From the human T2T-CHM13v2.0 reference genome, Homo sapiens: a stretch of 64,000 nt of DNA. A model generated the notes under the pieces. The model saw only the letters and a program-made list of their open reading frames with translations, did not search any database and was not told the DNA's origin. The stretch's first letter is position 1. Every line of letters starts with the position of its first letter. The stretch lies in the NCBI GenBank assembly GCA_009914755.4, contig CP068257.2, positions 192,001 to 256,000 on the forward strand, written 5' to 3'. Positions 1 through 50,777 of the stretch are shown here, piece after piece. A program made the position numbers and the translations under genes.

Positions 1-461
1 CCTCCGTTTCAGAGATTTACTCACCTTTTTCTCTCTCACTATGTCTGCCGTGGTCTCCATAAGAGTGTGCCACATACAATTGCCCCATTAAAAGTCATGA
101 ATTGAGTGGATTTTAGTATACCTGTGGTTGGGCACATTCAATTTTAATTCGCAATCCATTTTAGAAGGTTTTATCACCCCCGACCAGAGAAACACCCTGT
201 GGACATTAGTCACTCCTCATTCTGTCTCAAACCCTCTCCCTGACCCTCAGCCCTAGGTAACAACTGCATAGAGCGATCAACCCCATATGCATAGATTTTC
301 ATATTGTGGACATTTCCTATAAACGGAATTTCACAATAAGTGAGCTTTTGTGACTGACATAACACTTTTAGCACAATATTTTCAAGATTCATCCACATTG
401 CAGCTTTACCCACAGGGGGAAACCGCATTTTCTGGTTTCAGTAACACCGGGTGTTTTCTCC

Positions 462-545
462 TTCCTTCCGTCTTTCCTTCCTTCCTTCCTTCCTTCCTTC
501 CTTCCTTCCTTCCTTCCTTCCTTCCTCCCTTCCTCCCATTTCTCT
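462..545. repeat. (TTCC)n microsatellite. It is present in every unit, also at 7598-7672, 16455-16552, 23455-23550 and 30290-30480. The 30290-30480 copy is longer and degenerate.
   Basis: Direct read of a ttccttccttcc... run. It is a polypurine/polypyrimidine mirror repeat. Confidence 0.95.
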
Positions 546-1310
546 CTTATTCCTTCTGCCCTCTCTCTTTCATATGCCTTAGGTGCATCCTACGTCCTGC
601 GTCTTTTTGGGGAATCCTCGACAGGTGCTGGAAAATTGTGTTATTGTAATTATTTACCGGTATCTCTCTTTCATGGTTCTCCATCAGTTGTAAGCATCTA
701 TTGGTTTATCCCAGGTCACTAAGTATATTTTAATTAGCTACACCTGTTTTTCTTTATACACCTGTTTCTGGAGTATAGGGTCGCATACTCATAAACCCAG
801 TGTAACTCAGAAACGCATCTAATATTCCAATAGACCCATCATAACGTTGAAAAATCATAAATCAAACCAACTTAAGTCACGATTTGTCGCTGGATATGGG
901 CTCCATCAATTCCATTGTATTCAATAATGCTGTACACCATTAACAATGGCAGACTGATTGGGCGTGGATGTGGATAACATTATAAAAATCAGTTATTAGA
1001 GGGATACTTTAACCTGACGGAAGAGCTGATCTAATGGTATTAGTACAGTGATGATTATGTGAGATGTTTTGAGACAGAGTAGTACATTTGTGTATGAGAT
1101 TCTGTGGCTTTTTTCACTTAGTAGGAACCTTTGTGTGTGGAAAACTGAGAAAATTGCTTTGTGCTGTAGAGTCTGGCATTCGTTGTAGATTAAAGCTTAT
1201 TTTTCTGGAAGTAAATCTTATTCAATAAAATACTACTCTTTATAATAAAAAACAAAGACACTGGTGATGTGAAGTCATTATCCTCAGCAAACTAATCCAG
1301 GAACAGAAAA

Positions 1311-1600
1311 CCAAACGCCACATTCTCACTTATAATGGGAGCTGAAAAATAGGATCATGTGGACACAGGAAGGGGAACAACACACACTGGGGCCTTTCGG
1401 GAGGCAGAGCGTTAAGAAAAACAGCTACCGCATGCTGGGCTTAATACCTAGGTGATGGGTTGACAGGTGCAGCAAACCACCGTGGCACACGTTTACCATA
1501 GTAACAAATCTGCACAGCCTGCCCATATATTGCAGAACTTAGAAACGAAACGAAAGCAAAGAAAACGAGAAAGCGATAGCAAAACGCTAACTGCGAAACA
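1311..1600 (+). mobile_element. L1 3'-UTR end fragment plus an A-rich tail remnant, embedded in each macrosatellite unit. Further copies are at about 8447-8736, 17315-17600, 24318-24605 and 31256-31545.
   Basis: The stretch ccacattctcacttataatgggagctgaaa...ggacacaggaaggggaacaacacacactgggg...taatacctaggtgatgggttgacaggtgcagcaaaccaccgtggcacacgtttacc matches the canonical L1 3' end. It is followed by gaaacgaaacgaaagcaaagaaaacgag. Confidence 0.8.
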
Positions 1601-2744
1601 GAGTTTCAAACTCAGAAAGTGAGAGACCAATGTTTGGTTCAAATCATGGTTCTCAACCCAGGTGCCATAAGGTCAGGATAAAGAATTTGATGACGTATTG
1701 TAAATAAGACATGCAGCGGAGGACCAGAAAAATCGTTCTCAACATACGTGTGGCTTCGAGTTCAACGGTGACGCTATCTACAGTGACATAGCATTAGATT
1801 CCAAAGGGCCGAGTCCCGCAAGACTGGCCTCCCACACTAATAATAATGGGAAGCGCTACGTTGCTTTACCTGTGCTTCTCAGCAACTGGCTATAAATCAG
1901 GTTTCCACCACTCCCAGTTTTAGTTGCATTCATTTGCTGGAAGAGCTCACAGCACGCAGGGAAACACTGACATTTCCCATTTTTTGTATTTTAGCAGATA
2001 TTGCAAAAACTTCAGAAAAAACTTTTGGGCCCAGCATGTGGGGAGGGGCTCACTGCCTTCCAGGAAGTGTTATCCAGAAGCTCTCTAAACCCAGATCTTT
2101 TGGGTTTTTATGGAGACCTCATTCTATAGGCATGATGGGTTAAACCATAGGCTATTGGTGATCAACTCAACCTGGGGCTCTCAACCCTCCCTGGAAATTG
2201 CGGTTGAGGCCTTGCCATTCTCAGTCTGAGTAAAAGAATTTACGCAAACGGAATTTTAAAACAGATTAGCATATCTGGAAACTTAACTAGATGACGGAAT
2301 TATCTGGAGCCACACCTTGATATTCCTAACCCGAGCACCCTCATCCAACGAATGCTCCACCCAACTGGCTCCCAAGTCTCTACGGGGTTCCAGAGCAAAA
2401 GAATGTTTATACAACGCATATCTCCACCTTTTCTTCAAAGTCTTTTCGCTTACACGGAAAGACTTCTTCAACTGCCATTCATCAGGGTCAGGGGGAGGTC
2501 TTGTTACAACACAGATCTGCGGATCTCCGGGGTTTGATTGTGGCAAGGATGCTGCTGGTGTCAAAACCACAACGTGGGAACCACAGAACCACTAGTTGGT
2601 TTTCAGTGTTTCAGTGCATACAATTCCTAATATATCTGGCCAAGAAAACTTGTAAGTTCTTAGATTGTCCGAAAGGTGGCGCATGAAATCAAATCAGGAG
2701 AACAGTTTCCTACGAGGTGTAGCCTGGGAACCTTGGGGGTGACT

Positions 2745-2850
2745 GATGGAAAGGAGGAGTGAAGCTCCGCCCTTTCCGCTGCGAGGCTGCGCCCGAGGCT
2801 ATTTAAACCCACCCTGGCTGGCCTGTACTCAGATCTTCGCAGAGCGGAGC
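2745..2850 (+). promoter_or_regulatory. Putative Pol II core promoter of unit 1. It has a GC box (ccgccc at about 2768), a TATTTAAA box at 2800-2807, and a CpG-rich stretch.
   Basis: The sequence ggctatttaaaccc sits about 350 bp upstream of the ORF ATG. There are about 15 CpGs in 180 bp, and a candidate initiator near ctcagatcttcgc at about 2835. Confidence 0.35.
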
Positions 2851-3022
2851 AGCGGCCGGAGCGTTTGGCGGACTCTGCGTGGACTTGGAGCTCACAGCGT
2901 CTTGCGACTTGGAAGCGGATTCAGAGGACAGGACAGAACACTTGGGCAAGTGAATCTCTGTCTGTCTGTCTGTCTCATTGGTTGGTTTATTTCCATTTTC
3001 TTAAGGAGCACATACCTCACAC

Positions 3023-3090
3023 CACACACACACAAACACACACACACACACGCACGCACTCACGCACACACACACGCACACACACACACT
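3023..3090. repeat. (CA)n/(CACGCA)n microsatellite in the putative 5' UTR. (GTCT)5 precedes it at 2958-2977. Both repeat in every unit, also at 10150-10215, 19025-19095 and 26030-26095.
   Basis: Direct read of cacacacacaaacacacacacacacgcacgca... Confidence 0.95.
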
Positions 3091-3150
3091 AATTCATTCT
3101 GCGGGTTAGGAAATTAGTAGGGGTCTCTGGGAGCTGCAGGTTTCCTAATC

Positions 3151-6100
3151 ATGTCTGCACCTAAGAACACTAGGGTCTTGTCTGGCTCTTCTTATGAACG
3201 GTCCCCCAGCCCGGACTCCCCAAGATCCATGCTAGCCTCACCCAGCTTCTCCCTCTCCCCTCTCAGAAACTCAGACTTAAGAGGAAGCTCCTCACCAGGG
3301 ATCCGGAGCTACCATTCACCATCCCCTAGGGCTTCACCACACTCACCTCTGTCATCACCAGTATCCCACAATCTCCCATTTCCCTGTCCTATCCGTGATG
3401 GACAATCCATGAAGCCATTGGGCTCTCCCGTGTCCTCCTCTGAGGATTCTACAGAGTCACCACGTTCATCAGTAATATACCACATGTTCCTACTGCCATC
3501 ACCCAGCAGCTCACCCCCAGCTCTCTGGGAGTCTCCTGGGTCTCCCAGCTACTCTCCAAACAACCCCAGATTTCAGCTGGAGTCAGCCCCCCACACCCAG
3601 GAATCACCTGCAAACTCACGAGCCTCACGGTGCTCCTCCCCTATGTCTTTCATCTCTTCACCCCCAGGCCTCAGGGACTCTCCTGTGGCTCCCAGTTACT
3701 CTCAAGCCATCCCCATGTTCCTGCGGGAGTCAGCCCCATGCACTCAGGAGTCCCCCAGAGACTCACAGGTCTCGGGAGAATATGAGCGCTCCCCCAGCCC
3801 TGACTCCTCAAGATTCATGCCTGCCTCACCCAGCATCTACCTCTCCCCTCCCAGGAACTCAGACCCAAGGGGCAGCTCCTCACAAGGGATGTGGAAGTAC
3901 TCTACATCATCCCGCAGGGCTTCACCACTCTCACATCCGTCATCGGCAGAATTCCACAACTTTACATTTCCCTTTCCTAACCAAGCAGGACAATCACTCA
4001 TGTCATTGTGTTCTCCCGTGTCCTCCTCTGGAGATTCCTCACAGTCACCCCATTCATCAATAATATACCATGTGTTCTTACTGCCATCATCCAGCAGCTC
4101 ACCCCCAGCCACCAATGACTCTCCTGTCTGTCCCAGCTACTCTCCAACTACGCCCAGATTTCAGCGGGCGTCGGTATCCAACACCCCAGAAACACCTACA
4201 AACTCACAGACCTCAGTGAGATCCTCGCCAGTCTCTCTCACGTCTTCACCCCCAGGCCTTACGGACCCTCCAGTCTCTCCCAGCTACTATCCAACCACGC
4301 GCACATTTCAGCGCGGGTCAGATCCAGGAACCCAGGGATCACCAGCAAGCCCACCACTTTCACTGTGTTACTCCCCAGTCTCAAGCACGTCTTTATCTCC
4401 AACCCTCAGGGACTCTCCTGTCTGTCCCAGCTATTCTCCAACCACGCCCACGTTTCAGCGGGAGTCCGTTGCAGGCACCCAGCAATCACCACCAAACTCA
4501 CCAATTTCACTCAATTACTCTCCAGTCTCTCTCATGTCTTCACCAGCCCTCAGGGACTCTCCCATTTGTCCCAGCTACTCTCCAACCACGCCCAGATTTC
4601 AGCTGGAAGCAGTTCCTTGCACCCAGGAATCACCACCAAACTCACCAATTTCACTCAATTACTCCCCAGTCTCTCTCATGTCTTCACCATCCCTCAGGGA
4701 CTCTCCCGTCTGTCTCAGCTACTCTCCAACCACGCCCACATTTCAGCTGGAGTACCTTCGAGGCACCCCGGAGTCACCACCAAACTCACCAATTTCACTC
4801 AATTACTCTCCAGTCTCTCTCATGTCTCCACCAGCCCTCAGGGACTCTCCCGACTGTCCCAGCTACTCCCCAACAACGCCCAGATTTCAGCTGGAAGCAG
4901 TTCCTTGCTCCCCAGAATCAACACCAAACTCACCAATTTCACTCAATTACTCTCCAGTCTCTCTCATGTCTTCACCAGCCATCAGGGACTCTCCTGTCTG
5001 TCCCAGCTACTCTACAACCACGCCCACATTTCAGCTGGAGTCCGTTCGAGACACCCCGGAGTCACCACCAAACTCACCAATTTCACTCAATTACACTCCA
5101 GTCTCTCTCATGTCTTCACCAGCCATCAGGGACTCTCCCGTCTGTCCCAGCTACTCTCCAAAGACGCCCACATTTCAGCTGGAGTCTGTTCCAGGCACCC
5201 TGGAGTCACCACCAAACTCACCAATTTCACTCAATTACTCTCCAGTCTCTCTCATGTCTTCACCAGCCCTCAGGGACCCTCCTGTCTGTCCCAGCTACTC
5301 TCCAACCACCCCCAGATTTCAGCTGGAGTCAGTTCCAGGCACCCCGGAGTCACCACCAAACTCACCAGTTTCACTGAGTTACTCCCCGGTCTCTCTCATG
5401 TCTTCACCGCCAGCCCTCAGGGACTCTCCTGTGTGTCCCAGCTACTCTCCAACCACGCCCACATTTCAGCTGGAGTCAGTTCCAGGCACCCCGGAGTCAC
5501 CACCAAACTCACCAATTTCACTCAATTACTCTCCAGTCTCTCTCATGTCTTCACCAGCCCTCAGCGACTCTCCTGTCTGTCCCAGCTACTCTCCAACCAC
5601 GCCCAGATTTCAGCTGGAAGCAGTTCCTTGCACCCCAGAATCACCTCCAAACTCACCAATTTCACTCAATTACTCTCTAGTCTCTCTCATGTCTTCACCA
5701 GTCCTCAGGGACCCTCCTGTCTGTCCCAGCTACTCTCCATCCACCCCCAGATTTCAGTTGGAGTCAGTTCCAGGCACCGCGGAGTCACCACCAAACTCAC
5801 CAGTTTCACTGAGTTACTCCCCGTTCTCTCTCATGTCTTCACCGCCAGCCCTCAGGGACTCTCCTGTTTGTCCCCGCTACTCTCCAACCACGCCCACATT
5901 CCAGCTGGAGTCACTTGCAGGCACCCAGGAATTACCTACAAACTCAGCAGTTTCACTGAGTTACTCCCCAGTCTCTCTCATGTCTTCACCCCCAGCCCCC
6001 TGGGACTCTCCTGTCTGTCCCAGCTCCTCTCCCACCACGCCCAGATTTCAGAGGGAGTCAGCCTCCCACACTCCGGAATCACCTACAGACTCACAGACTT

Positions 6101-6996
6101 CACGGAGGTCCTCCCTGGTCTCTCTCAGGTCTTTGCCCTCAGCCCACAGGGACTCTTGTGTCTCTTTCAGCTACTCTCGAAACTTCTCTAGATTCCAGCT
6201 GGACTCAGTTCCAGGCACCCACGACACACCACCAAACTCACGAATTTCACTGACTTACTCCCCAGTCTCTCTCATGTTCTCACCCCCAGCCCTCAGGGAC
6301 TCTTCTGTCTCTCTCAGCTACTCTCCAGCCATCTCCACATCACACCTGGGGTCAGCTCCCCACACCCAGGAATCACCTACAAACTCACGGACCTTACTGC
6401 AACCCTCCCCCATTTCTTTCACCTCTTCAACCCCTGCTTTCAGGGACTCTCCTGTGTCTCCCAGCTTCTCTCCAGCCTTCCCCAGATTTCTGCCACAGTC
6501 AGCCCCAGGCACCCAGGGTTACCCTGGACACTCACAGGCCTCACGAGACTATTTCCCAATGACTTGTATCTATAGAGGGATGGCTCCCATACTTCCCTCG
6601 GTGACCTCAAACCCATCTCCACTTACACTCAGACACTCCCAGGGCCTGACAGCTACTCCCCGTTATTGTCCTTCAGCTCGAAGCCCTGACCCATCTACTA
6701 GCCAACATGATGCAGCTACCTGGCCATGTCTCCACATTTCTGGGGAGGGCCCCACACCCAGCCGCAGAAGAGCCCCTCCTGCATTCCGTCCTCACACACA
6801 GGCCTGTCCATCCACTTGCTACTGTCACACTCTTGCCAGCAGAGGAGGCCCCTGTAATGGCCGATATCACCGCCCAGTCTATCCTCACCCCACAGCTGTG
6901 CAGCGGGACCCTCCTGCTGGCCCACGTGGCTGCCACAGCCCATGCTGGCACGACGCTCCAGCATGTCGGCGTCCCTGCGGGCCACGCTACCGCTGA
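3151..6996 (+). CDS. Candidate intronless ORF of 1281 aa. It is a Ser/Pro-rich low-complexity protein made of 48-aa repeats, with a C-terminal Cys/His/Arg/Pro-rich tail. Function is unknown.
   Basis: The reading frame is continuous for 3846 nt, including about 1.3 kb upstream and 0.9 kb downstream of the minisatellite. ATG lies about 315 nt downstream of a TATA-like box, and ATTAAA lies 227 nt past the stop. Caveat: the CT-rich sequence is intrinsically poor in stop codons, so long ORFs also appear in other frames. Confidence 0.4.
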   Translation: MSAPKNTRVLSGSSYERSPSPDSPRSMLASPSFSLSPLRNSDLRGSSSPGIRSYHSPSPRASPHSPLSSPVSHNLPFPCPIRDGQSMKPLGSPVSSSEDSTESPRSSVIYHMFLLPSPSSSPPALWESPGSPSYSPNNPRFQLESAPHTQESPANSRASRCSSPMSFISSPPGLRDSPVAPSYSQAIPMFLRESAPCTQESPRDSQVSGEYERSPSPDSSRFMPASPSIYLSPPRNSDPRGSSSQGMWKYSTSSRRASPLSHPSSAEFHNFTFPFPNQAGQSLMSLCSPVSSSGDSSQSPHSSIIYHVFLLPSSSSSPPATNDSPVCPSYSPTTPRFQRASVSNTPETPTNSQTSVRSSPVSLTSSPPGLTDPPVSPSYYPTTRTFQRGSDPGTQGSPASPPLSLCYSPVSSTSLSPTLRDSPVCPSYSPTTPTFQRESVAGTQQSPPNSPISLNYSPVSLMSSPALRDSPICPSYSPTTPRFQLEAVPCTQESPPNSPISLNYSPVSLMSSPSLRDSPVCLSYSPTTPTFQLEYLRGTPESPPNSPISLNYSPVSLMSPPALRDSPDCPSYSPTTPRFQLEAVPCSPESTPNSPISLNYSPVSLMSSPAIRDSPVCPSYSTTTPTFQLESVRDTPESPPNSPISLNYTPVSLMSSPAIRDSPVCPSYSPKTPTFQLESVPGTLESPPNSPISLNYSPVSLMSSPALRDPPVCPSYSPTTPRFQLESVPGTPESPPNSPVSLSYSPVSLMSSPPALRDSPVCPSYSPTTPTFQLESVPGTPESPPNSPISLNYSPVSLMSSPALSDSPVCPSYSPTTPRFQLEAVPCTPESPPNSPISLNYSLVSLMSSPVLRDPPVCPSYSPSTPRFQLESVPGTAESPPNSPVSLSYSPFSLMSSPPALRDSPVCPRYSPTTPTFQLESLAGTQELPTNSAVSLSYSPVSLMSSPPAPWDSPVCPSSSPTTPRFQRESASHTPESPTDSQTSRRSSLVSLRSLPSAHRDSCVSFSYSRNFSRFQLDSVPGTHDTPPNSRISLTYSPVSLMFSPPALRDSSVSLSYSPAISTSHLGSAPHTQESPTNSRTLLQPSPISFTSSTPAFRDSPVSPSFSPAFPRFLPQSAPGTQGYPGHSQASRDYFPMTCIYRGMAPILPSVTSNPSPLTLRHSQGLTATPRYCPSARSPDPSTSQHDAATWPCLHISGEGPTPSRRRAPPAFRPHTQACPSTCYCHTLASRGGPCNGRYHRPVYPHPTAVQRDPPAGPRGCHSPCWHDAPACRRPCGPRYR
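4487..6078 (+). repeat. 144-bp (48-codon) minisatellite inside the unit-1 ORF. It has about 11 well-conserved copies, flanked by more degenerate copies on both sides.
   Basis: caccaccaaactcacc recurs at 4487, 4631 and so on with a 144-bp period. The encoded motif is SPPNSPISLNYSPVSLMSSPALRDSPVCPSYSPTTPRFQLESVPGTPE. Confidence 0.95.
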
Positions 6997-7222
6997 CATG
7001 GCTAGCATCACCCTCCTTCCTGGCAGTGACACTGCTGATTTGAACCCCAGTTTCACAGCTGTCATTTGTAAATAGGACCATTTTCCCTTTTCTCTCTCCC
7101 TTCCATTCACAGGGCTTCTCATTCCCTCTGTTTCTGCCTCCGTTTCAGAGATTTACTCACCTTTTTCTCTCTCACTATGTCTGCCGTGGTCTCCATAAGA
7201 GTGTGCCACATACAATTGCCCC

Positions 7223-7228
7223 ATTAAA
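7223..7228 (+). promoter_or_regulatory. Candidate polyadenylation signal ATTAAA for the unit-1 ORF, 227 nt past the stop. The equivalent hexamers are at 87-92, 16082-16087, 23082-23087 and 29935-29940.
   Basis: ATTAAA is followed within 30 nt by a GT-rich stretch, tgtggttg. Confidence 0.3.
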
Positions 7229-9872
7229 AGTCATGAATTGAGTGGATTTTAGTATACCTGTGGTTGGGCACATTCAATTTTAATTCGCAATCCATTTTAG
7301 AAGGTTTTATCACCCCCGACCAGAGAAACACCCTGTGGATATTAGTCACTCCTCATTCTGTCTCAAACCCTCTCCCTGACCCTCAGCCCTAGGTAACAAC
7401 TGCATAGAGCGATCAACCCCATATGCATAGATTTCCATATTGTGGACATTTCCTATAAACGGAATTTCACAATAAGTGAGCTTTTGTGACTGACATAACA
7501 CTTTTAGCACAATATTTTCAAGATTCATCCACATTGCAGCTTTACCCACAGGGGGAAACCGCATTTTCTGGTTTCAGTAACACCGGGTGTTTTCTCCTTC
7601 CTTCCGTCTTTCCTTCCTTCCTTCCTTCCTTCCTTCCTTCCTTCCTTCCTTCCTCCCTTCCTCCCATTTCTCTCTTATTCCTTCTGCCCTCTCTCTTTCA
7701 TATGCCTTAGGTGCATCCTACGTCCTGCGTCTTTTTGGGGAATCCTCGACAGGTGCTGGAAAATTGTGTTATTGTAATTATTTACCGGTATCTCTCTTTC
7801 ATGGTTCTCCATCAGTTGTAAGCATCTATTGGTTTATCCCAGGTCACTAAGTATATTTTAATTAGCTACACCTGTTTTTCTTTATACACCTGTTTCTGGA
7901 GTATAGGGTCGCATACTCATAAACCCAGTGTAACTCAGAAACGCATCTAATATTCCAATAGACCCATCATAACGTTGAAAAATCATAAATCAAACCAACT
8001 TAAGTCACGATTTGGCGCTGGATATGGGCTCCATCAATTCCATTGTATTCAATAATGCTGTACACCATTAACAATGGCAGACTGATTGGGCGTGGATGTG
8101 GATAACATTATAAAAATCAGTTATTAGAGGGATACTTTAACCTGACGGAAGAGCTGATCTAATGGTATTAGTACAGTGATGATTATGTGAGATGTTTTGA
8201 GACAGAGTAGTACATTTGTGTATGAGATTCTGTGGCTTTTTTCACTTAGTAGGAACCTTTGTGTGTGGAAAACTGAGAAAATTGCTTTGTGCTGTAGAGT
8301 CTGGCATTCGTTGTAGATTAAAGCTTATTTTTCTGGAAGTAAATCTTATTCAATAAAATACTACTCTTTATAATAAAAAACAAAGACACTGGTGATGTGA
8401 AGTCATTATCCTCAGCAAACTAATCCAGGAACAGAAAACCAAACGCCACATTCTCACTTATAATGGGAGCTGAAAAATAGGATCATGTGGACACAGGAAG
8501 GGGAACAACACACACTGGGGCCTTTCGGGAGGCAGAGCGTTAAGAAAAACAGCTACCGCATGCTGGGCTTAATACCTAGGTGATGGGTTGACAGGTGCAG
8601 CAAACCACCGTGGCACACGTTTACCATAGTAACAAATCTGCACAGCCTGCCCATATATTGCAGAACTTAGAAACGAAACGAAAGCAAAGAAAACGAGAAA
8701 GCGATAGCAAAACGCTAACTGCGAAACAGAGTTTCAAACTCAGAAAGTGAGAGACCAATGTTTGGTTCAAATCATGGTTCTCAACCCAGGTGCCATAAGG
8801 TCAGGATAAAGAATTTGATGACGTATTGTAAATAAGACATGCAGCGGAGGACCAGAAAAATCGTTCTCAACATACGTGTGGCTTCGAGTTCAACGGTGAC
8901 GCTATCTACAGTGACATAGCATTAGATTCCAAAGGGCCGAGTCCCGCAAGACTGGCCTCCCACACTAATAATAATGGGAAGCGCTACGTTGCTTTACCTG
9001 TGCTTCTCAGCAACTGGCTATAAATCAGGTTTCCACCACTCCCAGTTTTAGTTGCATTCATTTGCTGGAAGAGCTCACAGCACGCAGGGAAACACTGACA
9101 TTTCCCATTTTTTGTATTTTAGCAGATATTGCAAAAACTTCAGAAAAAACTTTTGGGCCCAGCATGTGGGGAGGGGCTCACTGCCTTCCAGGAAGTGTTA
9201 TCCAGAAGCTCTCTAAACCCAGATCTTTTGGGTTTTTATGGAGACCTCATTCTATAGGCATGATGGGTTAAACCATAGGCTATTGGTGATCAACTCAACC
9301 TGGGGCTCTCAACCCTCCCTGGAAATTGCGGTTGAGGCCTTGCCATTCTCAGTCTGAGTAAAAGAATTTACGCAAACGGAATTTTAAAACAGATTAGCAT
9401 ATCTGGAAACTTAACTAGATGACGGAATTATCTGGAGCCACACCTTGATATTCCTAACCCGAGCACCCTCATCCAACGAATGCTCCACCCAACTGGCTCC
9501 CAAGTCTCTACGGGGTTCCAGAGCAAAAGAATGTTTATACAACGCATATCTCCACCTTTTCTTCAAAGTCTTTTCGCTTACACGGAAAGACTTCTTCAAC
9601 TGCCATGCATCAGGGTCAGGGGGAGGTCTTGTTACAACACAGATCTGCGGATCTCCGGGGTTTGATTGTGGCAAGGATGCTGCTGGTGTCAAAACCACAA
9701 CGTGGGAACCACAGAACCACTAGTTGGTTTTCAGTGTTTCAGTGCATACAATTCCTAATATATCTGGCCAAGAAAACTTGTAAGTTCTTAGATTGTCCCA
9801 AAGGTGGCGCATGAAATCAAATCAGGAGAACAGTTTCCTACGAGGTGTAGCCTGGGAACCTTGGGGGTGACT

Positions 9873-9978
9873 GATGGAAAGGAGGAGTGAAGCTCCGCCC
9901 TTTCCGCTGCGAGGCTGCGCCCGAGGCTATTTAAACCCACCCTGGCTGGCCTGTACTCAGATCTTCGCAGAGCGGAGC
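9873..9978 (+). promoter_or_regulatory. The same putative promoter in unit 2. TATTTAAA is at 9928-9935.
   Basis: Identical sequence to unit 1. Confidence 0.3.
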
Positions 9979-10276
9979 AGCGGCCGGAGCGTTTGGCGGA
10001 CTCTGCGTGGACTTGGAGCTCACAGCGTCTTGCGACTTGGAAGCGGATTCAGAGGACAGGACAGAACACTTGGGCAAGTGAATCTCTGTCTGTCTGTCTG
10101 TCTCATTGGTTGGTTTATTTCCATTTTCTTAAGGAGCACATACCTCACACCACACACACACAAACACACACACACACGCACGCACGCACGCACACACACA
10201 CGCACACACACACACTAATTCATTCTGCGGGTTAGGAAATTAGTAGGGGTCTCTGGGAGCTGCAGGTTTCCTAATC

Positions 10277-13200
10277 ATGTCTGCACCTAAGAACACTAGG
10301 GTCTTGTCTGGCTCTTCTTATGAACGGTCCCCCAGCCCGGACTCCCCAAGATCCATGCTAGCCTCACCCAGCTTCTCCCTCTCCCCTCTCAGAAACTCAG
10401 ACTTAAGAGGAAGCTCCTCACCAGGGATCCGGAGCTAACATTCACCATCCCCTAGGGCTTCACCACACTCACCTCTGTCATCACCAGTATCCCACAATCT
10501 CCCATTTGCCTGTCCTCTCCGTGATGGGCAATCAATGAAGCCATTGGGCTCTCCCGTGTCCTCCTCTGAGGATTCTTCAGAGTCACCACGTTTATCAGTA
10601 ATATACCACATGTTCCTACTGCCATCACCCAGCAGCTCACCCCCAGCTGCTTGGGAGTCTCCTGGGTCTCCCAGCTACTCTCCAAACAACCCCAGATTTC
10701 AGCTGGAGTCAGCCCCCCACACCCAGGAATCACCTGCAAACTCACGAGCCTCACGGTGCTCCTCCCCTATGTCTTTCATCTCTTCACCCCCAGGCCTCAG
10801 GGACTCTCCTGTGGCTCCCAGTTACTCTCAAGCCATCCCCATGTTCCTGCGGGAGTCAGCCCCATGCACTCAGGAGTCCCCCAGAGACTCACAGGTCTCG
10901 GGAGAATATGAGCGGTCCCCCAGCCCTGACTCCTCAAGATTCATGCCTGCCTCACCCACCATCTACGTCTCCCCTCCCAGGAACTCAGACCCAAGGGCAG
11001 CTCCTCACAAGGGATGTGGAAGTACTCTACATCATCCCGCAGGGCTTCACCACTCTCACGTCCGTCATCGGCAGAATTCCACAACTTTACATTTCCCTTT
11101 CCTAACCAAGCAGGACAATCACTCATGTCATTGTGTTCTCCCGTGTCCTCCTCTGGAGATTCCTCACAGTCACCCCATTCATCAATAATATACCATGTGT
11201 TCTTACTGCCATCATCCAGCAGCTCACCCCCAGCCACCAATGACTCTCCTGTCTGTCCCAGCTACTCTCCAACTACGCCCAGATTTCAGCGGGCGTCGGT
11301 ATCCAACACCCCAGAAACACCTACAAACTCACAGACCTCAGTGAGATCCTCGCCAGTCTCTCTCACGTCTTCACCCCCAGGCCTTACGGACCCTCCAGTC
11401 TCTCCCAGCTACTATCCAACCACGCGCACATTTCAGCGCGGGTCAGATCCAGGAACCCAGGGATCACCAGCAAGCCCACCACTTTCACTGTGTTACTCCC
11501 CAGTCTCAAGCACGTCTTTATCTCCAACCCTCAGGGACTCTCCTGTCTGTCCCAGCTATTCTCCAACCACGCCCACGTTTCAGCGGGAGTCCGTTGCAGG
11601 CACCCAGCAATCACCAGCAAACTCACCAATTTCACTGCGTTACTCCCCAGTCTCTCTCATGTCTTCACCAGCCCTGAGGGACTCTCCCGTCTGTCCCAGC
11701 TACTCTCCAACAACACCCACATTTCAGCTGGAGTCCGTTCGAGGCACCCCGGAGTCACCACCAAACTCACCAATTACACTCAATTACTCTCCAGTCTCTC
11801 TCATGTCTTCACCAGCCCTCAGGGACTATCACGTCTGAACCAGCTACTCTCAAACCACCCCCAGATTTCAGCTGGAAGCAGTTCCTTGCTCCCCGGAATG
11901 AACACCAAACTCACCAATTTCACTCAATTACTCTCCAGTCTCTCTCATGTCTTCACCAGCCCTCAGGGACTCTCCCATCTGTCCCAGCTACTCTCCAACC
12001 ACGCCCAGATTTCAGCTGGAAGCAGTTCCTTGCACCCAGGAATCACCACCAAACTCACCAATTTCACTCAATTACTCCCCAGTCTCTCTCATGTCTTCAC
12101 CATCCCTCAGGGACTCTCCCGTCTGTCTCAGCTACTCTCCAACCACGCCCACATTTCAGCTGGAGAACCTTCGAGGCACCCCGGAGTCACCACCAAACTC
12201 ACCAATTTCACTCAATTACTCTCCAGTCTCTCTCATGTCTTCACCAGCCCTCAGGGACTCTCCCGACTGTCCCAGCTACTCTCCAACAACGCCCAGATTT
12301 CAGCTGGAAGCAGTTCCTTGCTCCCCAGAATCAACACCAAACTCACCAATTTCACTCAATTACTCTCCAGTCTCTCTCATGTCTTCACCAGCCATCAGGG
12401 ACTCTCCCGTCTGTCCCAGCTACTCTCCAAAGACGCCCACATTTCAGCTGGAGTCTGTTCCAGGCACACTGGAGTCACCACCAAACTCACCAATTTCACT
12501 CAATTACTCTCCAGTCTCTCTCATGTCTTCACCAGCCCTCAGGGACCCTCCTGTCTGTCCCAGCTACTCTCCAACCACACCCAGATTTCAGCTGGAGTCA
12601 GTTCCAGGCACCCTGGAGTCACCACCAAACTCACCAGTTTCACTGAGTTACTCCCCGGTCTCTCTCATGTCTTCACCGCCAGCCCTCAGGGACTCTCCTG
12701 TGTGTCCCAGCTACTCTAAAACCACGCCCACATTTCAGCTGGAGTCAGTTTCAGGCACCCCGGAGTCACCAACAAACTCACCAATTTCACTCAATTACTC
12801 TCCAGTCTCTCTCATGTCTTCACCAGCACTCAGGGACTCTCCTGTCTGTCCCAGCTACTCTCCAACCACGCCCAGATTTCAGCTGGAAGCAGTTCCTTGC
12901 ACCCCAGAATCACCACCAAACTCACCAATTTCACTCAATTACTCTCTAGTCTCTCTCATGTCTTCACCAGCACTCAGGGACCCTCCTGTCTGTCCCAGCT
13001 ACTCTCCAAGCACCCCCAGATTTCAGCTGGAGTCTGTTCCAGGCACCCCGGAGTCACCACCAAACTCACCAGTTTCACTGAGTTACTCCCCGGTCTCTCT
13101 CATGTCTTCACCGCCAGCCCTCAGGGACTCTCCTGTGTGTCCCAGCTACTCTCCAACCAGGCCCACATTTCAGCTGGAGTCAGTTCCAGGCACCCCGGAG

Positions 13201-15855
13201 TCACCACCAAACTCACCAATTACACTCAATTACTCTCCAGTCTCTCTCATGTCTTCACCAGCCCTCAGGGACTCTCCCGTCTGTCCCAGCTACTCTCCAA
13301 CCACCCCCAGATTTCAGCTGGAAGCAGTTCCTTGCTCCCCGGAATCAACACCAAACTCACCAATTTCACTCAATTACTCTCCAGTCTCTCTCATGTCTTC
13401 ACCAGCCCTCAGGGACTCTCCCATCTGTCCCAGCTACTCTCCAACCACGCCCAGATTTCAGCTGGAAGCAGTTCCTTGCACCCAGGAATCACCACCAAAC
13501 TCACCAATTTCACTCAATTACTCCCCAGTCTCTCTCATGTCTTCACCATCCCTCAGGGACTCTCCCGTCTGTCTCAGCTACTCTCCAACCACGCCCACAT
13601 TTCAGCTGGAGTACCTTCGAGGCACCCCGGAGTCACCACCAAACTCACCAATTTCACTCAATTACTCTCCAGTCTCTCTCATTTCTTCACCAGCCCTCAG
13701 GGACTCTCCCGACTGTCCCAGCTACTCTCCAACAACGCCCAGATTTCAGCTGGAAGCAGTTCCTTGCTCCCCAGAATCAACACCAAACTCACCAATTTCA
13801 CTCAATTACTCTCCAGTCTCTCTCATGTCTTCACCAGCCATCAGGGACTCTCCCGTCTGTCCCAGCTACTCTCAAACCACGCCCACATTTCAGCTGGAGT
13901 CCGTTCGAGGCACCCCAGAGTCACCACCAAACTCACCAATTTCACTCAATTACACTCCAGTCTCTCTCATGTCTTCACCAGCCATCAGGGACTCTCCCGT
14001 CTGTCCCAGCTACTCTCCAAAGACGCCCACATTTCAGCTGGAGTCTGTTCCAGGCACCCTGGAGTCACCACCAAACTCACCAATTTCACTCAATTACTCT
14101 CCAGTCTCTCTCATGTCTTCACCAGCCCTCAGGGACCCTCCTGTCTGTCCCAGCTACTCTCCAACCACCCCCAGATTTCAGCTGGAGTCAGTTCCAGGCA
14201 CCCTGGAGTCACCACCAAACTCACCAGTTTCACTGAGTTACTCCCCGGTCTCTCTCATGTCTTCACCGCCAGCCCTCAGGGACTCTCCTGTGTGTCCCAG
14301 CTACTCTCCAACCACGCCCACATTTCAGCTGGAGTCAGTTCCAGGCACCCCGGAGTCACCACCAAACTCACCAATTTCACTCAATTACTCTCCAGTCTCT
14401 CTCATGTCTTCACCAGCCCTCAGGGACTCTCCTGTCTGTCCCAGCTACTCTCCAACCACGCCCAGATTTCAGCTGGAAGCAGTTCCTTGCACCCCAGAAT
14501 CACCTCCAAACTCACCAATTTCACTCAATTACTCTCTAGTCTCTCTCATGTCTTCACCAGTCCTCAGGGACCCTCCTGTCTGTCCCAGCTACTCTCCAAC
14601 CACACCCAGATTTCAGTTGGAGTCAGTTCCAGGCACCGCGGAGTCACCACCAAACTCACCAGTTTCACTGAGTTACTCCCCGTTCTCTCTCATGTCTTCA
14701 CCGCCAGCCCTCAGGGACTCTCCTGTTTGTCCCCGCTACTCTCCAACCACGCCCACATTCCAGCTGGAGTCACTTGCAGGCACCCAGGAATTACCTACAA
14801 ACTCAGCAGTTTCACTGAGTTACTCCCCAGTCTCTCTCATGTCTTCACCCCCAGCCCCCTGGGACTCTCCTGTCTGTCCCAGCTCCTCTCCCACCACGCC
14901 CAGATTTCAGAGGGAGTCAGCCTCCCACACTCCGGAATCACCTACAGACTCACAGACTTCACGGAGGTCCTCCCTGGTCTCTCTCAGGTCTTTGCCCTCA
15001 GCCCACAGGGACTCTTGTGTCTCTTTCAGCTACTCTCGAAACTTCTCTAGATTCCAGCTGGACTCAGTTCCAGGCACCCACGACACACCACCAAACTCAC
15101 GAATTTCACTGACTTACTCCCCAGTCTCTCTCATGTTCTCACCCCCAGCCCTCAGGGACTCTTCTGTCTCTCTCAGCTACTCTCCAGCCATCTCCACATC
15201 ACACCTGGGGTCAGCTTCCCACACCCAGGAATCACCTACAAACTCACGGACCTTACTGCAACCCTCCCCCATTTCTTTCACCTCTTCACCCCCTGCTTTC
15301 AGGGACTCTCCTGTGTCTCCCAGCTTCTCTCCAGCCTTCCCCAGATTTCTGCCACAGTCAGCCCCAGGCACCCAGGGTTACCCTGGACACTCACAGGCCT
15401 CACGAGACTATTTCCCAATGACTTGTATCTATAGAGGGATGGCTCCCATACTTCCCTCAGTGACCTCAAACCCATCTCCACTTACACTCAGACACTCCCA
15501 GGGCCTGACAGCTACTCCCCGTTATTGTCCTTCAGCTCGAAGCCCTGGCCCATCTACTAGCCAACATGATGCAGCTACCTGGCCATGTCTCCACATTTCT
15601 GGGGAGGGCCCCACACCCAGCCGCAGAAGAGCCCCTCCTGCATTCCGTCCTCACACACAGGCCTGTCCATCCACTTGCTACTGTCACACTCTTGCCAACA
15701 GAAGAGGCCCCTGTAATGGCCGATATCACCGCCCAGTCTATCCTCACCCCACAGCTGTGCAGCGGGACCCTCCTGCTGGCCCACGTGGCTGCCACAGCCC
15801 ATGCTGGCACGACGCTCCAGCATGTCGGCGTCCCTGCGGGCCACGCTACCGGTGA
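10277..15855 (+). pseudogene. Disrupted copy of the S/P-rich ORF in unit 2. It has TAC>TAA at codon 54, a 1-bp deletion near 10970 and a stop near 11838. The 3' part, 11947-15855, stays open for 1302 codons.
   Basis: At 10431-10448 the sequence reads ccggagctaacattcacc, against ccggagctaccattcacc in units 1 and 3. The ORF track shows a fragmented series 10535..11188, 11014..11838 and 11947..15855. Confidence 0.4.
11612..14937 (+). repeat. 144-bp minisatellite in unit 2, about 23 copies.
   Basis: Same period and motif. The array is 3326 bp long. Confidence 0.95.
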
Positions 15856-18747: not shown

Positions 18748-18853
18748 GATGGAAAGGAGGAGTGAAGCTCCGCCCTTTCCGCTGCGAGGCTGCGCCCGAG
18801 GCTATTTAAACCCACCCTGGCTGGCCTGTACTCAGATCTTCGCAGAGCGGAGC
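18748..18853 (+). promoter_or_regulatory. The same putative promoter in unit 3. TATTTAAA is at 18803-18810.
   Basis: Identical sequence to unit 1. Confidence 0.35.
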
Positions 18854-19153
18854 AGCGGCCGGAGCGTTTGGCGGACTCTGCGTGGACTTGGAGCTCACAG
18901 CGTCTTGCGACTTGGAAGCGGATTCAGAGGACAGGACAGAACACTTGGGCAAGTGAATCTCTGTCTGTCTGTCTGTCTCATTGGTTGGCTTATTTCCATT
19001 TTCTTAAGGAGCACATACCTCACACCACACACACACAAACACACACACACACACGCACGCACGCACGCACACACACACGCACACACACACACTAATTCAT
19101 TCTGCGGGTTAGGAAATTAGTAGGGGTCTCTGGGAGCTGCAAGTTTCCTAATC

Positions 19154-25751: not shown

Positions 25752-25857
25752 GATGGAAAGGAGGAGTGAAGCTCCGCCCTTTCCGCTGCGAGGCTGCGCC
25801 CGAGGCTATTTAAACCCACCCTGGCTGGCCTGTACTCAGATCTTCGCAGAGCGGAGC
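25752..25857 (+). promoter_or_regulatory. The same putative promoter in unit 4. TATTTAAA is at 25807-25814.
   Basis: Identical sequence to unit 1. Confidence 0.3.
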
Positions 25858-26157
25858 AGCGGCCGGAGCGTTTGGCGGACTCTGCGTGGACTTGGAGCTC
25901 ACAGCGTCTTGCGACTTGGAAGCGGATTCAGAGGACAGGACAGAACACTTGGGCAAGTGAATCTCTGTCTGTCTGTCTCTCTCATTGGTTGGTTTATTTC
26001 CATTTTCTTAAGGAGCACATACCTCACACCACACACACACAAACACACACACACACACGCACGCACGCACGTACACACACACGCACACACACACACTAAT
26101 TCATTCTGCGGGTTAGGAAATTAGTAGGGGTCTCTGGGAGCTGCAGGTTTCCTAATC

Positions 26158-29100: not shown

Positions 29101-29708
29101 GGACCTTACTGCAACCCTCCCCCATTTCTTTCACCTCTTCACCCCCTGCTTTCTGGGACTCTCCTGTGTCTCCCAGCTTCTCTCCAGCCTTCCCCAGATT
29201 TCTGCCACAGTCAGCCCCAGGCACCCAGGGGAACCCTGGACACTCATAGTCCTCACGAGACTATTTCCCAATGACTTGTATCTATAGAGCGATGGCTCCC
29301 ATGCTTCCCTCAGTGACCCCAAACCCATCTCCACTTACACTCAGACACTCCCAGGGCCTGACAGCTACTCCCCGTTATTGTCCTTCAGCTCGAAGCCCTG
29401 GCCCATCTACTAGCCAACATGATGCAGCTACCTGGCCATGTCTCCACATTTCTGGGGAGGGCCCCACACCCAGCCGCAGAAGAGCCCCTCCTGCATTCCG
29501 TCCTCACACACAGGCCTGTCCATCCACTTGCTACTGTCACACTCTTGCCAGCAGAAGAGGCCCCTGTAATGGCCGATATCACCGCCCAGTCTATCCTCAC
29601 CCCACAGCTGTGCAGCGGGACCCTCCTGCTGGCCCACGTGGCTGCCACAGCCCATGCTGGCACGACGCTCCAGCATGTCGGCGTCCCTGCGGGCCACGCT
29701 ACCGCTGA
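26158..29708 (+). pseudogene. Disrupted copy of the S/P-rich ORF in unit 4. It has the same TAC>TAA stop at 26317-26319 and several later frameshifts and stops.
   Basis: ATG at 26158 and TAA at 26317. The ORF track fragments are 26489..28393, 27474..29249 and 29271..29708. Stops occur at cccagctagtctcc near 27870 and 28300. Confidence 0.4.
27492..28790 (+). repeat. 144-bp minisatellite in unit 4, about 9 copies, with indels.
   Basis: Same period and motif. Frameshifting indels are present. Confidence 0.9.
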
Positions 29709-29848
29709 CATGGCTAGCATCACCCTCCTTCCTGGCAGTGACACTGCTGATTTGAACCCCAGTTTCACAGCTGTCATTTGTAAATAGGACCATTTTCCCT
29801 TTTCTCTCTCCCTTCCATTCACAGGGCTTCTCATTCTCTCTGTTTCTG

Positions 29849-47290: not shown

Positions 47291-47814
<524 letters not shown>

Positions 47815-48870: not shown

Positions 48871-49760
<890 letters not shown>

Positions 49761-50030: not shown

Positions 50031-50777
<747 letters not shown>

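What the first reader, a model, noticed from the sequence alone, without database searches (positions are those of the whole stretch)
4487..6078. The in-frame 144-bp (48-codon) minisatellite varies from 9 to 23 copies between adjacent units
The core of the ORF is a 144-bp repeat, so every expansion or contraction adds or removes exactly 48 codons and preserves the frame. Copy number is about 11 in unit 1, 23 in unit 2, 10 in unit 3 and 9 in unit 4. This explains the unit lengths of 7136, 8859, 7000 and 6853 bp. The encoded 48-mer is SPPNSPISLNYSPVSLMSSPALRDSPVCPSYSPTTPRFQLESVPGTPE. It is full of SP/TP proline-directed phospho-acceptor sites and of YSPTTP/YSPVS heptads reminiscent of the RNA Pol II CTD heptad YSPTSPS. 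The sense strand is more than 75% pyrimidine. If expressed, the product would be a highly polymorphic, intrinsically disordered and multiply phosphorylatable protein. If not, it is an unusually long-period coding-frame-compatible VNTR nested in a macrosatellite, with two levels of copy-number variation.
Basis: seen in the sequence. Interest (0 to 1): 0.7.

Follow-up and report, generated by a model that had tools for sequence, protein, structure and literature searches.

The report
ACRO1 satellite inside ACRO macrosatellite units
The 144-bp repeat is the already described primate ACRO1 satellite sitting inside the 6-7 kb "ACRO/ACRE" macrosatellite of acrocentric short arms, and its Pol II CTD-like translation is published. 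What seems not to be published is that it lies inside a long reading frame that monkeys keep open at a single-copy locus.

Summary
There are four full 6.85-8.86 kb tandem units and a diverged partial fifth. Each carries a block of 144/147-bp repeats with 11, 23, 10 and 9 homogeneous core copies, and block length explains unit length.

Corrections:
- The sense strand is 64% pyrimidine, not more than 75%.
- The ancestral period is 147 bp (7 x 21 bp, seven xSPxxxx heptads); 144 bp is a local derivative.
- Two copies are 143 bp.
- The ORF is intact only in units 1 and 3 (1281 and 1233 aa). Units 2 and 4 carry a shared nonsense codon plus frameshifts.

By anatomy this is the ACRO1 satellite within the ACRO/ACRE composite repeat (Warburton 2008; Boots 2020). 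That literature already reports the 49-aa CTD-like translation, Pol II-binding RNA, a 4-cell-embryo expression peak and DUX4 induction.

Additional result: single-copy orthologous loci in langur and red colobus, and a marmoset protein model, keep the same ATG-to-stop frame (878 aa intact in colobus). The ORF has no indels in 1959 nt, against 9-11 in 1.3-1.4 kb of upstream flank. Yet dN/dS is 0.76-0.97 against the monkeys (0.54-1.09 between the two colobines) and codon positions vary evenly. The frame is conserved and the residues are not. Translation is untested.

The parts
1..7136 (+). Macrosatellite unit 1 (ACRO/ACRE-type composite unit)
   Evidence: Unit anchors and pairwise identity of 98.2-99.5% outside the repeat block.
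7137..15995 (+). Unit 2, the expanded unit (8859 bp)
   Evidence: Its 23 core copies include a block duplication of about 10 copies.
15996..22996 (+). Unit 3
22997..29848 (+). Unit 4
29849..32143 (+). Partial fifth unit (unit coordinates 1 to about 2200). It is about 90% identical to the others and marks the distal edge of the array. It has no promoter and no ORF.
   Evidence: Sliding identity along the alignment.
2741..2952 (+). Putative core promoter (GC box, TATTTAAA) and non-coding exon 1, ending at a GT donor near 2949-2953. This is inferred from sequence, not shown.
   Evidence: Read from the sequence. Divergence from colobines is 8-12%, against 14.7% further upstream.
2953..3136 (+). 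Putative short intron containing (CA)n, ending in a CAG acceptor 14 nt before the ATG. Inferred.
   Evidence: The acceptor and the 14 nt before the ATG are identical in langur and colobus.
3151..6996 (+). Intact ORF of unit 1, 1281 aa. It consists of two roughly 190-aa head-plus-repeat modules followed by the long repeat block and a unique C-terminus.
   Evidence: Frame 0 has no internal stops, against 14 and 16 in the other two frames. Internal duplication of aa 15-202 and 210-398.
10277..15855 (+). Disabled ORF of unit 2. It carries a nonsense codon at position 54, a 1-bp deletion (equivalent to unit 1 position 3869), and stops at 11836 and 11899.
19154..22855 (+). Intact ORF of unit 3, 1233 aa
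26158..29708 (+). Disabled ORF of unit 4. It carries the same codon-54 nonsense as unit 2, a 2-bp deletion, and two 143-bp repeat copies (27704-27846 and 28279-28421).
3529..3766 (+). Short ACRO1-like block (1.6 copies) of unit 1. Equivalents lie at 10655-10892, 19532-19769 and 26534-26771.
   Evidence: nhmmer. It matches the '256 bp arrays' described in PMC7714431.
4117..6558 (+). Long ACRO1-like block of unit 1 (16.8 copies). The degenerate flanking copies are all exactly 147 bp.
4411..5997 (+). Homogenised core of unit 1, 11 copies, mostly 144 bp
11242..15417 (+). Long block of unit 2 (28.5 copies). The core lies at 11536-14856 with 23 copies.
20120..22417 (+). Long block of unit 3. The core lies at 20414-21856 with 10 copies.
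27122..29231 (+). Long block of unit 4. The core lies at 27416-28710 with 9 copies.
1260..1560 (+). L1 3'-end fragment inside the unit. The junction of the tandem duplication maps between unit coordinates about 1005 and 1254.
   Evidence: Recognised by eye. Langur synteny places unit 1254-3150 upstream of the gene and unit 419-1005 downstream of it.

Best explanation
The feature is the ACRO1 satellite block of the ACRO (ACRE) composite macrosatellite. This primate-specific repeat, roughly 6 kb, forms highly self-similar arrays on the short arms of great-ape acrocentric chromosomes.

Proposed history:
1. Shown here: in Old World monkeys the same sequence is a single-copy locus. It has one long ATG-to-stop reading frame built from a duplicated head module and a run of 147-bp (49-codon) repeats. 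Each repeat is seven diverged xSPxxxx heptads.
2. Shown for the arrangement, inferred for the timing: in the window's lineage (human or a close ape), the gene and about 3 kb of flank, including an L1 fragment, were amplified head to tail.
3. Shown: inside this array the central repeats were homogenised to a 144-bp derivative in which one Pro codon is lost. Blocks of repeats are gained and lost by out-of-register exchange between copies. Unit 2 gained about 12 copies, mostly in one 10-copy duplication. Because the period is a multiple of three, such events keep the frame.
4. Shown: individual units decay at about the neutral rate, and 2 of 4 are disabled.
5. Shown: over roughly 25-40 million years the single-copy orthologues kept the frame open and free of indels, while amino acids changed almost neutrally.

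Function:
- From the literature: ACRO1 RNA is made in cleavage-stage embryos, is DUX4-inducible, binds Pol II and blocks elongation in cis.
- My inference: the frame conservation means that at least the ancestral gene is translated into a disordered, S/P-rich protein resembling the Pol II CTD. Length and composition matter to this protein rather than exact sequence.
For: Identity with ACRO1/ACRE:
- The repeat is 147 bp. Long and short blocks sit in a 6-7 kb unit with L1 fragments.
- The 49-aa translation matches CTD heptads at 22 of 49 positions, against 23 of 49 reported for the ACRO1 consensus.
- Homologues were found only in primates.
- The published descriptions are in PMC2588610, PMC7714431 and PMC12767296.

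The ORF is more than chance:
- Frame 0 has no stops over 1281 codons, including 752 non-core codons. The other two frames have 8 and 15 stops in the unique head and C-terminal parts alone.

Orthologues:
- Red colobus has an intact 878-aa ORF with 8.6 repeats of 147 bp.
- Langur has a 1163-aa ORF, then one 2-bp frameshift, then 318 aa, with 19.6 repeats of 147 bp, at a single-copy locus.
- The marmoset model XP_017823678.3 is 832 aa and shares the same N- and C-termini.

Frame constraint:
- There are no gaps in 1260 + 699 nt of ORF in any pairwise comparison among window, langur and colobus. The 1400 nt upstream has 11-13 gaps.
- At the flank density of non-microsatellite gaps, 13.6 would be expected in the ORF, giving P about 1e-6.
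- The length variants in colobus are +3 and -12 only.
- All eight old repeat copies in unit 1 are exactly 147 bp despite 12-34% divergence.

Exchange mechanism:
- The repeat-variant maps show that unit 1 equals unit 2 copies 01 plus 14-23, and that unit 2 copies 04-13 parallel copies 14-23.
Against: - There is no signal of amino-acid constraint. dN/dS is 0.76-0.97 for the window against the monkeys, and 1.09 (N part) and 0.54 (C part) for langur against colobus. It is 0.94 among the old repeats. Frame-shifted controls give 0.72-1.28.
- Differences are flat over codon positions (49/47/48 and 31/30/32).
- Variation between units is no lower in the ORF (2.1-2.6%) than outside it (1.8-1.9%).
- Half the units are disabled.
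- The marmoset protein and the langur DNA each contain an out-of-frame stretch.
- The stop codon position differs by 16 codons between the window and the colobines.
- No named human or ape protein appeared among the hits I looked up, and there is no Pfam domain.
- Identity with the Repbase/Dfam ACRO1 consensus was inferred from published descriptions. It was not tested by direct alignment.
- Boots et al. could not detect stable ACRO1 transcripts in HeLa cells.
Confidence: 0.85

Rival explanations
1. This is a purely non-coding satellite. The open frame is a by-product of a C-rich, G-poor repeat. What matters is the RNA, a Pol II-binding aptamer that silences its own transcription, or the chromatin or nucleolar role of the array. 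No protein is made.
For: - dN/dS is about 1 and codon positions vary evenly.
- Inside the core, long ORFs are also open in the other two forward frames, 608 and 302 aa.
- 2 of 4 units are disabled.
- The published function is at the RNA level (PMC7714431).
- There is no named human or ape protein record among the hits looked up, and no Pfam domain.
Against: - The non-repetitive head and C-terminal parts are open only in frame 0, with 0 stops against 8 and 15 in the other frames.
- These parts have no indels against two colobines, where the flank has 9-13.
- The ATG, the 14 nt before it and the approximate stop are shared by catarrhines and marmoset.
- An aptamer or chromatin role does not explain frame preservation in the head region of a single-copy monkey locus.
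Confidence: 0.35
2. This is a dying gene. The ancestral single-copy gene is, or was, functional in monkeys. After amplification on hominoid acrocentric arms, the copies became ordinary satellite DNA drifting to pseudogenes. The two intact ORFs in the window are survivors by chance and by gene conversion.
For: - Units accumulate nonsense and frameshift changes. About 6-7 disabling events occur among 4 units at 0.5-1.8% divergence, roughly within twofold of my rough neutral estimate.
- Diversity between units is equal inside and outside the ORF.
- Units 2 and 4 share a nonsense codon that has spread.
Against: - Under the same rough estimate, a 3.8-kb ORF staying intact at 0.5-1% divergence is itself improbable, about 0.002-0.05 per unit. 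Yet two of four are intact.
- ACRO1 is actively transcribed in embryos, according to the literature.
- Four units cannot settle this question.
Confidence: 0.4
3. The repeat is derived from the mRNA of the Pol II large-subunit CTD. This is the suggestion of Boots et al. On this view it is a true homologue of RPB1.
For: - 22 of 49 residues match in register with YSPTSPS heptads.
- There are weak hits to RPB1 proteins, with E values of 2e-6 to 2e-4.
- Automated annotation names the monkey genes 'RPB1-like'.
Against: - The hits cover only 9-17% of the query at 34-42% identity and lie in low-complexity sequence.
- There is no Pfam match, not even to the CTD repeat family, at E <= 1.
- The head and tail of the ORF have no RPB1 counterpart.
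- The heptad consensus is xSPxxxx, not YSPTSPS.
- Convergence of S/P-rich heptads is enough to explain the resemblance.
Confidence: 0.07

Closest known systems
ACRO1 satellite within the ACRO composite repeat (also called ACRE, for ACRO1-containing repeat element) of human and great-ape acrocentric short arms, 4p11 and 3p
   Same: - The ancestral repeat is 147 bp.
- One long block and one short block (about 250 bp) sit in each 6-7 kb unit, together with L1 and other transposon fragments.
- The units form highly self-similar head-to-tail arrays.
- The family is primate-only.
- The 49-aa translation resembles CTD heptads (PMC2588610, PMC7714431, PMC12767296).
   Different: - In this array the central copies are a 144-bp derivative with a weak 435-bp (144+144+147) higher order.
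- The long blocks are 2.0-4.1 kb, against the published 1.3-2.4 kb.
- The units are 6.85-8.86 kb rather than about 6 kb.
- The papers I could read do not mention the 1233-1281-aa ORF or its conservation in monkeys.
D4Z4/DUX4 and other gene-bearing macrosatellites (CT47, TAF11-like, PRR20, USP17/RS447)
   Same: - Each multi-kb tandem unit carries its own promoter and an ORF without introns in the coding part.
- Intact and dead copies are mixed.
- Expression is embryonic or germline, with heterochromatin elsewhere.
- Copy number varies.
   Different: - Those ORFs encode recognisable folded domains under purifying selection. This one is low-complexity with dN/dS about 1.
- This one also carries a second, internal level of copy-number variation.
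Coding VNTRs of disordered repeat proteins (mucin tandem-repeat domains, involucrin, salivary proline-rich proteins)
   Same: - The period is a multiple of three.
- Copy number differs between alleles and species.
- Repeats are homogenised by unequal exchange.
- Composition is conserved rather than sequence.
   Different: Those proteins are demonstrably expressed and have signal peptides or known roles. Here translation is unproven and the host gene is itself amplified as a satellite.
RNA polymerase II CTD (RPB1 heptad repeats)
   Same: Serine-proline heptads with Tyr at position 1 in several heptads (YSPTTPR, YSPVSLM), and many S/T-P sites.
   Different: - It is not attached to a polymerase.
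- There is no Pfam CTD match.
- The heptads are diverged and organised in 49-residue super-repeats.
- The similarity is likely convergent.

Membership tests
ACRO1 satellite / ACRO (ACRE) composite repeat | Tandem repeat with a 147-bp consensus unit | tested here: met
   All 8 older copies of unit 1 are exactly 147 bp. The langur and colobus orthologues have a period of 147. The central copies here are a 144-bp derivative.
ACRO1 satellite / ACRO (ACRE) composite repeat | A long block (1.3-2.4 kb) and a short block (about 256 bp) inside a roughly 6 kb higher-order unit that also holds LINE, LTR and DNA-transposon fragments, arranged head to tail | tested here: met
   The short block is 238 bp (3529-3766). 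The long blocks are 2.0-4.1 kb. An L1 3' fragment lies near 1260-1560. The units are 6.85-8.86 kb and tandem. The LTR (MER21B) and L1MB8 parts could not be checked without a repeat library.
ACRO1 satellite / ACRO (ACRE) composite repeat | The in-silico translation of the unit resembles Pol II CTD heptads (23 of 49 identical in PMC7714431) | tested here: met
   22 of 49 residues are identical to (YSPTSPS)7 in register. There is a 21-bp / 7-aa periodicity.
ACRO1 satellite / ACRO (ACRE) composite repeat | Restricted to primates | tested here: met
   All named homologues are primate (marmoset, red colobus, langur) or look like human contamination, for example in a Plasmodium ovale assembly. The remaining hits were unnamed.
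ACRO1 satellite / ACRO (ACRE) composite repeat | Direct sequence match to the Repbase/Dfam ACRO1 consensus | not testable with these tools
   No eukaryotic repeat library or consensus sequence was available. The paper's supplements hold no ACRO1 sequence.
ACRO1 satellite / ACRO (ACRE) composite repeat | Location on the distal short arm of an acrocentric chromosome (or on 4p11 / 3p) | not testable with these tools
   The context is compatible: the array edge is followed by GC-rich satellites, a TAR1-like relic, degenerate TTAGGG and a 76-bp satellite. The window cannot be mapped.
RNA polymerase II large subunit (RPB1) CTD | Canonical YSPTSPS heptad array recognised by the Pfam CTD repeat model and attached to RPB1 catalytic domains | tested here: not met
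   There is no Pfam family at E <= 1 for the window ORF or the marmoset protein. RPB1 hits are only E 2e-6 to 2e-4 over 9-17% of the query.
Protein-coding gene under selection | The reading frame is kept open and free of frameshifts in orthologues | tested here: met
   Colobus has an intact 878 aa. Langur has 1163 aa, one 2-bp shift, then 318 aa. The marmoset model is 832 aa. There are 0 gaps in 1959 ORF nt, against 13.6 expected from the flank.
Protein-coding gene under selection | Fewer non-synonymous than synonymous changes; third-position excess | tested here: not met
   dN/dS is 0.76-0.97 for the window against the monkeys and 0.54-1.09 between the two colobines. Codon positions are 49/47/48 and 31/30/32. 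Shifted-frame controls give similar values.
Protein-coding gene under selection | Evidence of translation | not testable with these tools
   No expression or proteomic data can be queried. The literature reports RNA only.

The most novel reading that the evidence does not exclude
The ACRO1 'satellite' is the repeat domain of a real anthropoid gene. The ACRO/ACRE unit would then be an amplified gene whose intact copies are translated in cleavage-stage embryos into a large (about 1,200-aa), copy-number-polymorphic, CTD-like disordered protein. For example, it could be a decoy or condensate partner for CTD kinases, CTD-binding factors or the nucleolus. This would be in addition to the published RNA-level effect on Pol II.
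Probability: 0.3. Interest if true: 0.75.

Novelty: already known. Interest (0 to 1): 0.35.

Why it matters
As a repeat, this is known biology. ACRO is the repeat class most enriched on great-ape acrocentric short arms after rDNA. It is transcribed at the 4-cell stage and responds to DUX4, yet it is treated as non-coding satellite.

Suppose the frame conservation seen here holds up: open in colobus, langur and marmoset, with no indels but free amino-acid change. A major human 'satellite' would then be an amplified gene for a CTD-like disordered protein. That would change how ACRO1 RNA signals in embryo, cancer and FSHD data sets are read. It would also give a concrete, testable product.

The nested copy-number variation (repeats per unit, units per array) would then be protein-length polymorphism multiplied across hundreds of copies.

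Tried and rejected
- **Bacterial-type promoter and terminator scan of 2400-3200:** irrelevant for a primate locus, so ignored.
- **tRNA scan of the window,** prompted by a tRNA-like motif in the 200-bp repeats: nothing found.
- **Rfam:** only an Alu/SRP hit at 48904-49051.
- **Pfam on the ORF and the marmoset protein:** no family.
- **Exact look-ups for the window ORFs and the marmoset protein:** not on record, so no marmoset DNA was available for dN/dS.
- **First word-index protein search:** it missed the colobine proteins. These appeared only in the exhaustive HMMER search.
- **DUX4 motif TAAYCYAATCA with up to 1 mismatch:** there is no site inside the units, so the reported DUX4 induction is not explained by an obvious site in this sequence.
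- **Literature searches on 'macrosatellite / 144 bp / subtelomeric' and '48 amino acid VNTR':** no leads.
- **Search for '6kbHsap':** it appears only in lists of repeat names. I could not establish whether that Repbase entry is this unit, and I do not claim it.
- **My early guess of a subtelomeric gene family:** dropped once Warburton 2008 and Boots 2020 matched the anatomy.
- **AlphaFold and structure searches:** not run. A 41% Ser+Pro repeat without an alignment would give an uninformative low-confidence model.
Full report
**1. What is in the sequence**

The left half of the window is a head-to-tail array. Units start at 1, 7137, 15996 and 22997, and a fifth partial unit runs from 29849 to about 32143.

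Outside one internal repeat block the four full units are 98.2-99.5% identical and nearly equal in length: 4399-4419 nt to the left of the core and 1138-1140 nt to the right. The partial fifth unit is only about 90% identical and stops at unit coordinate 2200. It is therefore the less homogenised edge of the array.

TRF reports a 144-bp array in each unit, with 16.5, 28.5, 15.5 and 13.6-14.5 copies. It also reports a weaker 435-bp (144+144+147) higher order.

A profile search resolves each array into three parts:
- two degenerate copies at the 5' end;
- a homogeneous core of exactly 11, 23, 10 and 9 copies;
- about four degenerate copies at the 3' end.

A separate short block of 1.6 copies lies 350 nt upstream.

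The unit lengths I measure are 7136, 8859, 7001 and 6852.

Three details need correcting:
- The strand is 64% pyrimidine, not more than 75%.
- Copies are 144 bp (38 of 53), 147 bp (9, plus the terminal ones) and, twice in unit 4, 143 bp.
- The ORF is open only in units 1 and 3.

**2. Hierarchy of the repeat**

The eight older copies of unit 1 are all exactly 147 bp and align without a gap, despite 12-34% pairwise divergence.

A 147-bp copy is most similar to itself at shifts of 21, 42 and 63 nt (0.46, 0.43, 0.42). The 95th percentile of the shuffle maximum is 0.395. The protein autocorrelation peaks at 7, 14, 21 and 28 residues.

The unit is therefore seven diverged heptads: DPPVCPS YSPTTPR FQLESVP GTPESPP NSPVSLS YSPVSLM SSPPALR. 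The 144-bp form has lost one Pro codon of the last heptad.

The ORF also contains an older duplication: residues 15-202 align with residues 210-398.

The repeat-variant maps show how copy number changed. Unit 1 corresponds to unit 2 copies 01 and 14-23. Within unit 2, copies 04-13 parallel copies 14-23, with 0-5 differences for the clearest pairs. The doubling was therefore essentially one block duplication.

**3. The reading frame in the window**

Each unit has an ATG (3151, 10277, 19154, 26158) and a stop (ending at 6996, 15855, 22855, 29708).

In unit 1, frame 0 has no internal stop in 1281 codons. The other two forward frames have 14 and 16 stops. In the unique head and C-terminal parts alone they have 8 and 15. 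The frame is therefore not explained by composition, although inside the core the other frames are also open for 302-608 codons.

Units 2 and 4 share TAC>TAA at codon 54. Unit 2 adds a 1-bp deletion and two in-frame stops. Unit 4 adds a 2-bp deletion and two 143-bp copies.

Upstream lie a GC box, a TATTTAAA motif, a plausible non-coding exon with a GT donor, a roughly 185-nt intron holding (CA)n, and a CAG acceptor 14 nt before the ATG. This gene structure is inferred, not shown.

**4.

- Among the 53 core copies, the 93 distinct variants fall 31/30/32 on codon positions. 30% are synonymous, against 27-30% expected from random mutation.
- Among the old copies, dN/dS is 0.94. Shifted-frame controls give 0.72-1.28.
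- Between units, substitutions in the ORF flanks fall 22/16/14 by codon position. The ORF is as variable (2.1-2.6%) as the rest of the unit (1.8-1.9%).

By these criteria there is no amino-acid constraint.

**5. Relatives elsewhere**

The word-index search found only a marmoset model, XP_017823678.3. It is 832 aa and collinear at both ends, with one out-of-frame stretch.

The exhaustive search found 61 proteins. They include the following:
- Colobine models named 'RPB1-like'.
- Many unnamed ORFs on short contigs.
- One 'Plasmodium ovale' protein that differs from the window at 3 of 236 residues. I take this to be human contamination, a known artefact for ACRO1 (PMC6581058). It suggests the window is human or a very close ape.

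The langur locus (L001) and the red colobus locus (L003) are single-copy within 10 kb on either side. They lie 13-14 Mb from the start of their records. Unit coordinates 1254-3150 lie upstream of the gene and 419-1005 lie downstream. The tandem junction of the array therefore maps next to the L1 fragment.

- Colobus has one uninterrupted 878-aa ORF with 8.6 copies of 147 bp. Its only length variants are +3 and -12.
- Langur has 19.6 copies of 147 bp and a 1163-aa ORF. A single 2-bp loss, which may be real or an assembly error, is followed by 318 aa to the shared stop.

The period in other species is therefore 147 bp, not 144 bp, but it is still a multiple of three.

**6. Frame conserved, residues not**

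| Region and comparison | Divergence | Gaps | dN/dS |
|---|---|---|---|
| ORF N part (1260 nt), window vs langur and colobus | 11.4-11.8% | 0 | 0.76-0.97 |
| ORF C part (699 nt), window vs langur and colobus | 9.7-10.2% | 0 | 0.86-0.96 |
| ORF N and C parts, langur vs colobus | 3.3% and 4.4% | 0 | 1.09 and 0.54 |
| 1400 nt upstream, window vs langur and colobus | 13.0-13.5% | 11-13 (9 outside microsatellites) | not applicable |

Codon positions are flat (49/47/48).

At the flank's gap density, 13.6 gaps would be expected in the ORF parts, giving P about 1e-6. A rough count of nonsense targets gives about 8 expected stops at this divergence, and none is seen in the intact copies (the 1:8 indel-to-substitution ratio used there is my assumption).

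The putative promoter and exon 1 are somewhat better conserved (8-12%) than sequence further upstream (14.7%).

The pattern is selection for an open frame and for length and composition, without selection on particular residues. The stop position itself differs by 16 codons between the window and the colobines.

**7. What it is called**

- Warburton et al. 2008 describe roughly 6-kb units carrying roughly 1.6-kb blocks of the 147-bp 'Acro' satellite, amplified on all acrocentric short arms, 4p and 3p.
- Boots et al. 2020 name the unit ACRE. They give long (1.3-2.4 kb) and short (256 bp) ACRO1 blocks and primate restriction. They report that the translated consensus shares 23 of 49 residues with the Pol II CTD, that ACRO1 RNA binds Pol II, and that it blocks elongation in cis.
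- A 2025 preprint calls it ACRO, a 6-kb composite of ACRO1, L1PA10, MER21B and L1MB8. It forms self-similar arrays, especially on the distal short arm of every NOR-bearing great-ape chromosome.
- Other papers report a 4-cell-stage expression peak, DUX4 induction, and hypomethylation in spermatogonial stem cells and sperm.

The window matches every feature I could test: a 147-bp ancestral unit, a long and a short block, an L1 fragment, tandem units, and 22 of 49 residues matching CTD heptads. Direct alignment to the consensus was not possible.

None of the papers I could search mentions the long ORF or its conservation. That is an absence in a limited library, not proof of novelty.

**8. Verdict**

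The finding is a correct description of a known repeat, and its most striking interpretive point, the CTD-like heptads, is already published.

Local particulars are the 144-bp derivative, the 4.1-kb block in unit 2 (beyond the published range) and the block-duplication mechanism.

The part worth following up is the cross-species frame conservation. It keeps open the possibility that ACRO units are amplified copies of a gene for a disordered CTD-like protein.

I put the identification at about 0.9 and the combined account at 0.85. I put translation of at least some copies at about 0.3-0.5.

Noticed in passing
window 32686-34331 and 34401-39950: Directly distal to the array edge lie blocks of an 18-bp repeat (TCAGGCCCCAGGTGGACA). 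They are followed by about 27 copies of a 193-221-bp, 60% GC tandem repeat with 414-431-bp higher order. The family was not identified.
   Followed up: no
window 39948-40946: This looks like a relic chromosome end. It has 29-bp and 46-bp repeats, a stretch that I recall as TAR1-like (40260-40650), and about 290 bp of degenerate (TTAGGG)n on the + strand. Unrelated AT-rich DNA follows.
   Followed up: partly
window 58016-60078, 60413-60617, 60737-61636: A 75-76-bp satellite with a palindromic core (GGGGGTGTACACCCCC). The consensus of the last block is reported in the opposite orientation. The family was not identified.
   Followed up: no
window 43700-45000: A 66% GC island with internal repetition and overlapping ORFs of 130-310 aa on both strands. 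No gene was identified.
   Followed up: no
window 3310-3312, 10436-10438, 26317-26319: Units 2 and 4 share the same nonsense change (TAC>TAA, codon 54), yet units 1 and 2 are the most similar pair overall (99.5%). This suggests patchwise gene conversion between units.
   Followed up: partly
L002 1-21317 (GCA_015473145.1, BNJS01002773.1): An unannotated assembly whose organism I do not know holds at least three tandem ACRE-like units of about 6.28 kb, with roughly 10.6 copies of 147 bp. It shows 2.4-8% mismatches to the window and many 1-bp gaps (noisy reads). The unit nearest its 3' end is the most similar to the window.
   Followed up: partly
protein P0008 (SBT58865.1, 'Plasmodium ovale wallikeri'): A 1029-bp contig annotated as parasite 'RPB1, partial' encodes the ACRE head region, with 3 of 236 residues different from unit 1. 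This is almost certainly host (human) contamination that has been turned into a protein record.
   Followed up: partly
window 1-32143 (all units): There is no match to the DUX4 motif TAAYCYAATCA (up to 1 mismatch) inside any unit, although ACRO1 is reported to be DUX4-induced. The only match in the window is at 50420-50430, and chance would give about 5.
   Followed up: yes
window 47469-47795 and 49461-49952 (minus strand): Two ORFs share long near-identical stretches (...[21 protein letters not shown]...), indicating a local duplication of about 2 kb. An Alu lies between them at 48904-49051.
   Followed up: no
window 56735-56989: A 126-bp segment is duplicated in tandem at 98% identity.
   Followed up: no
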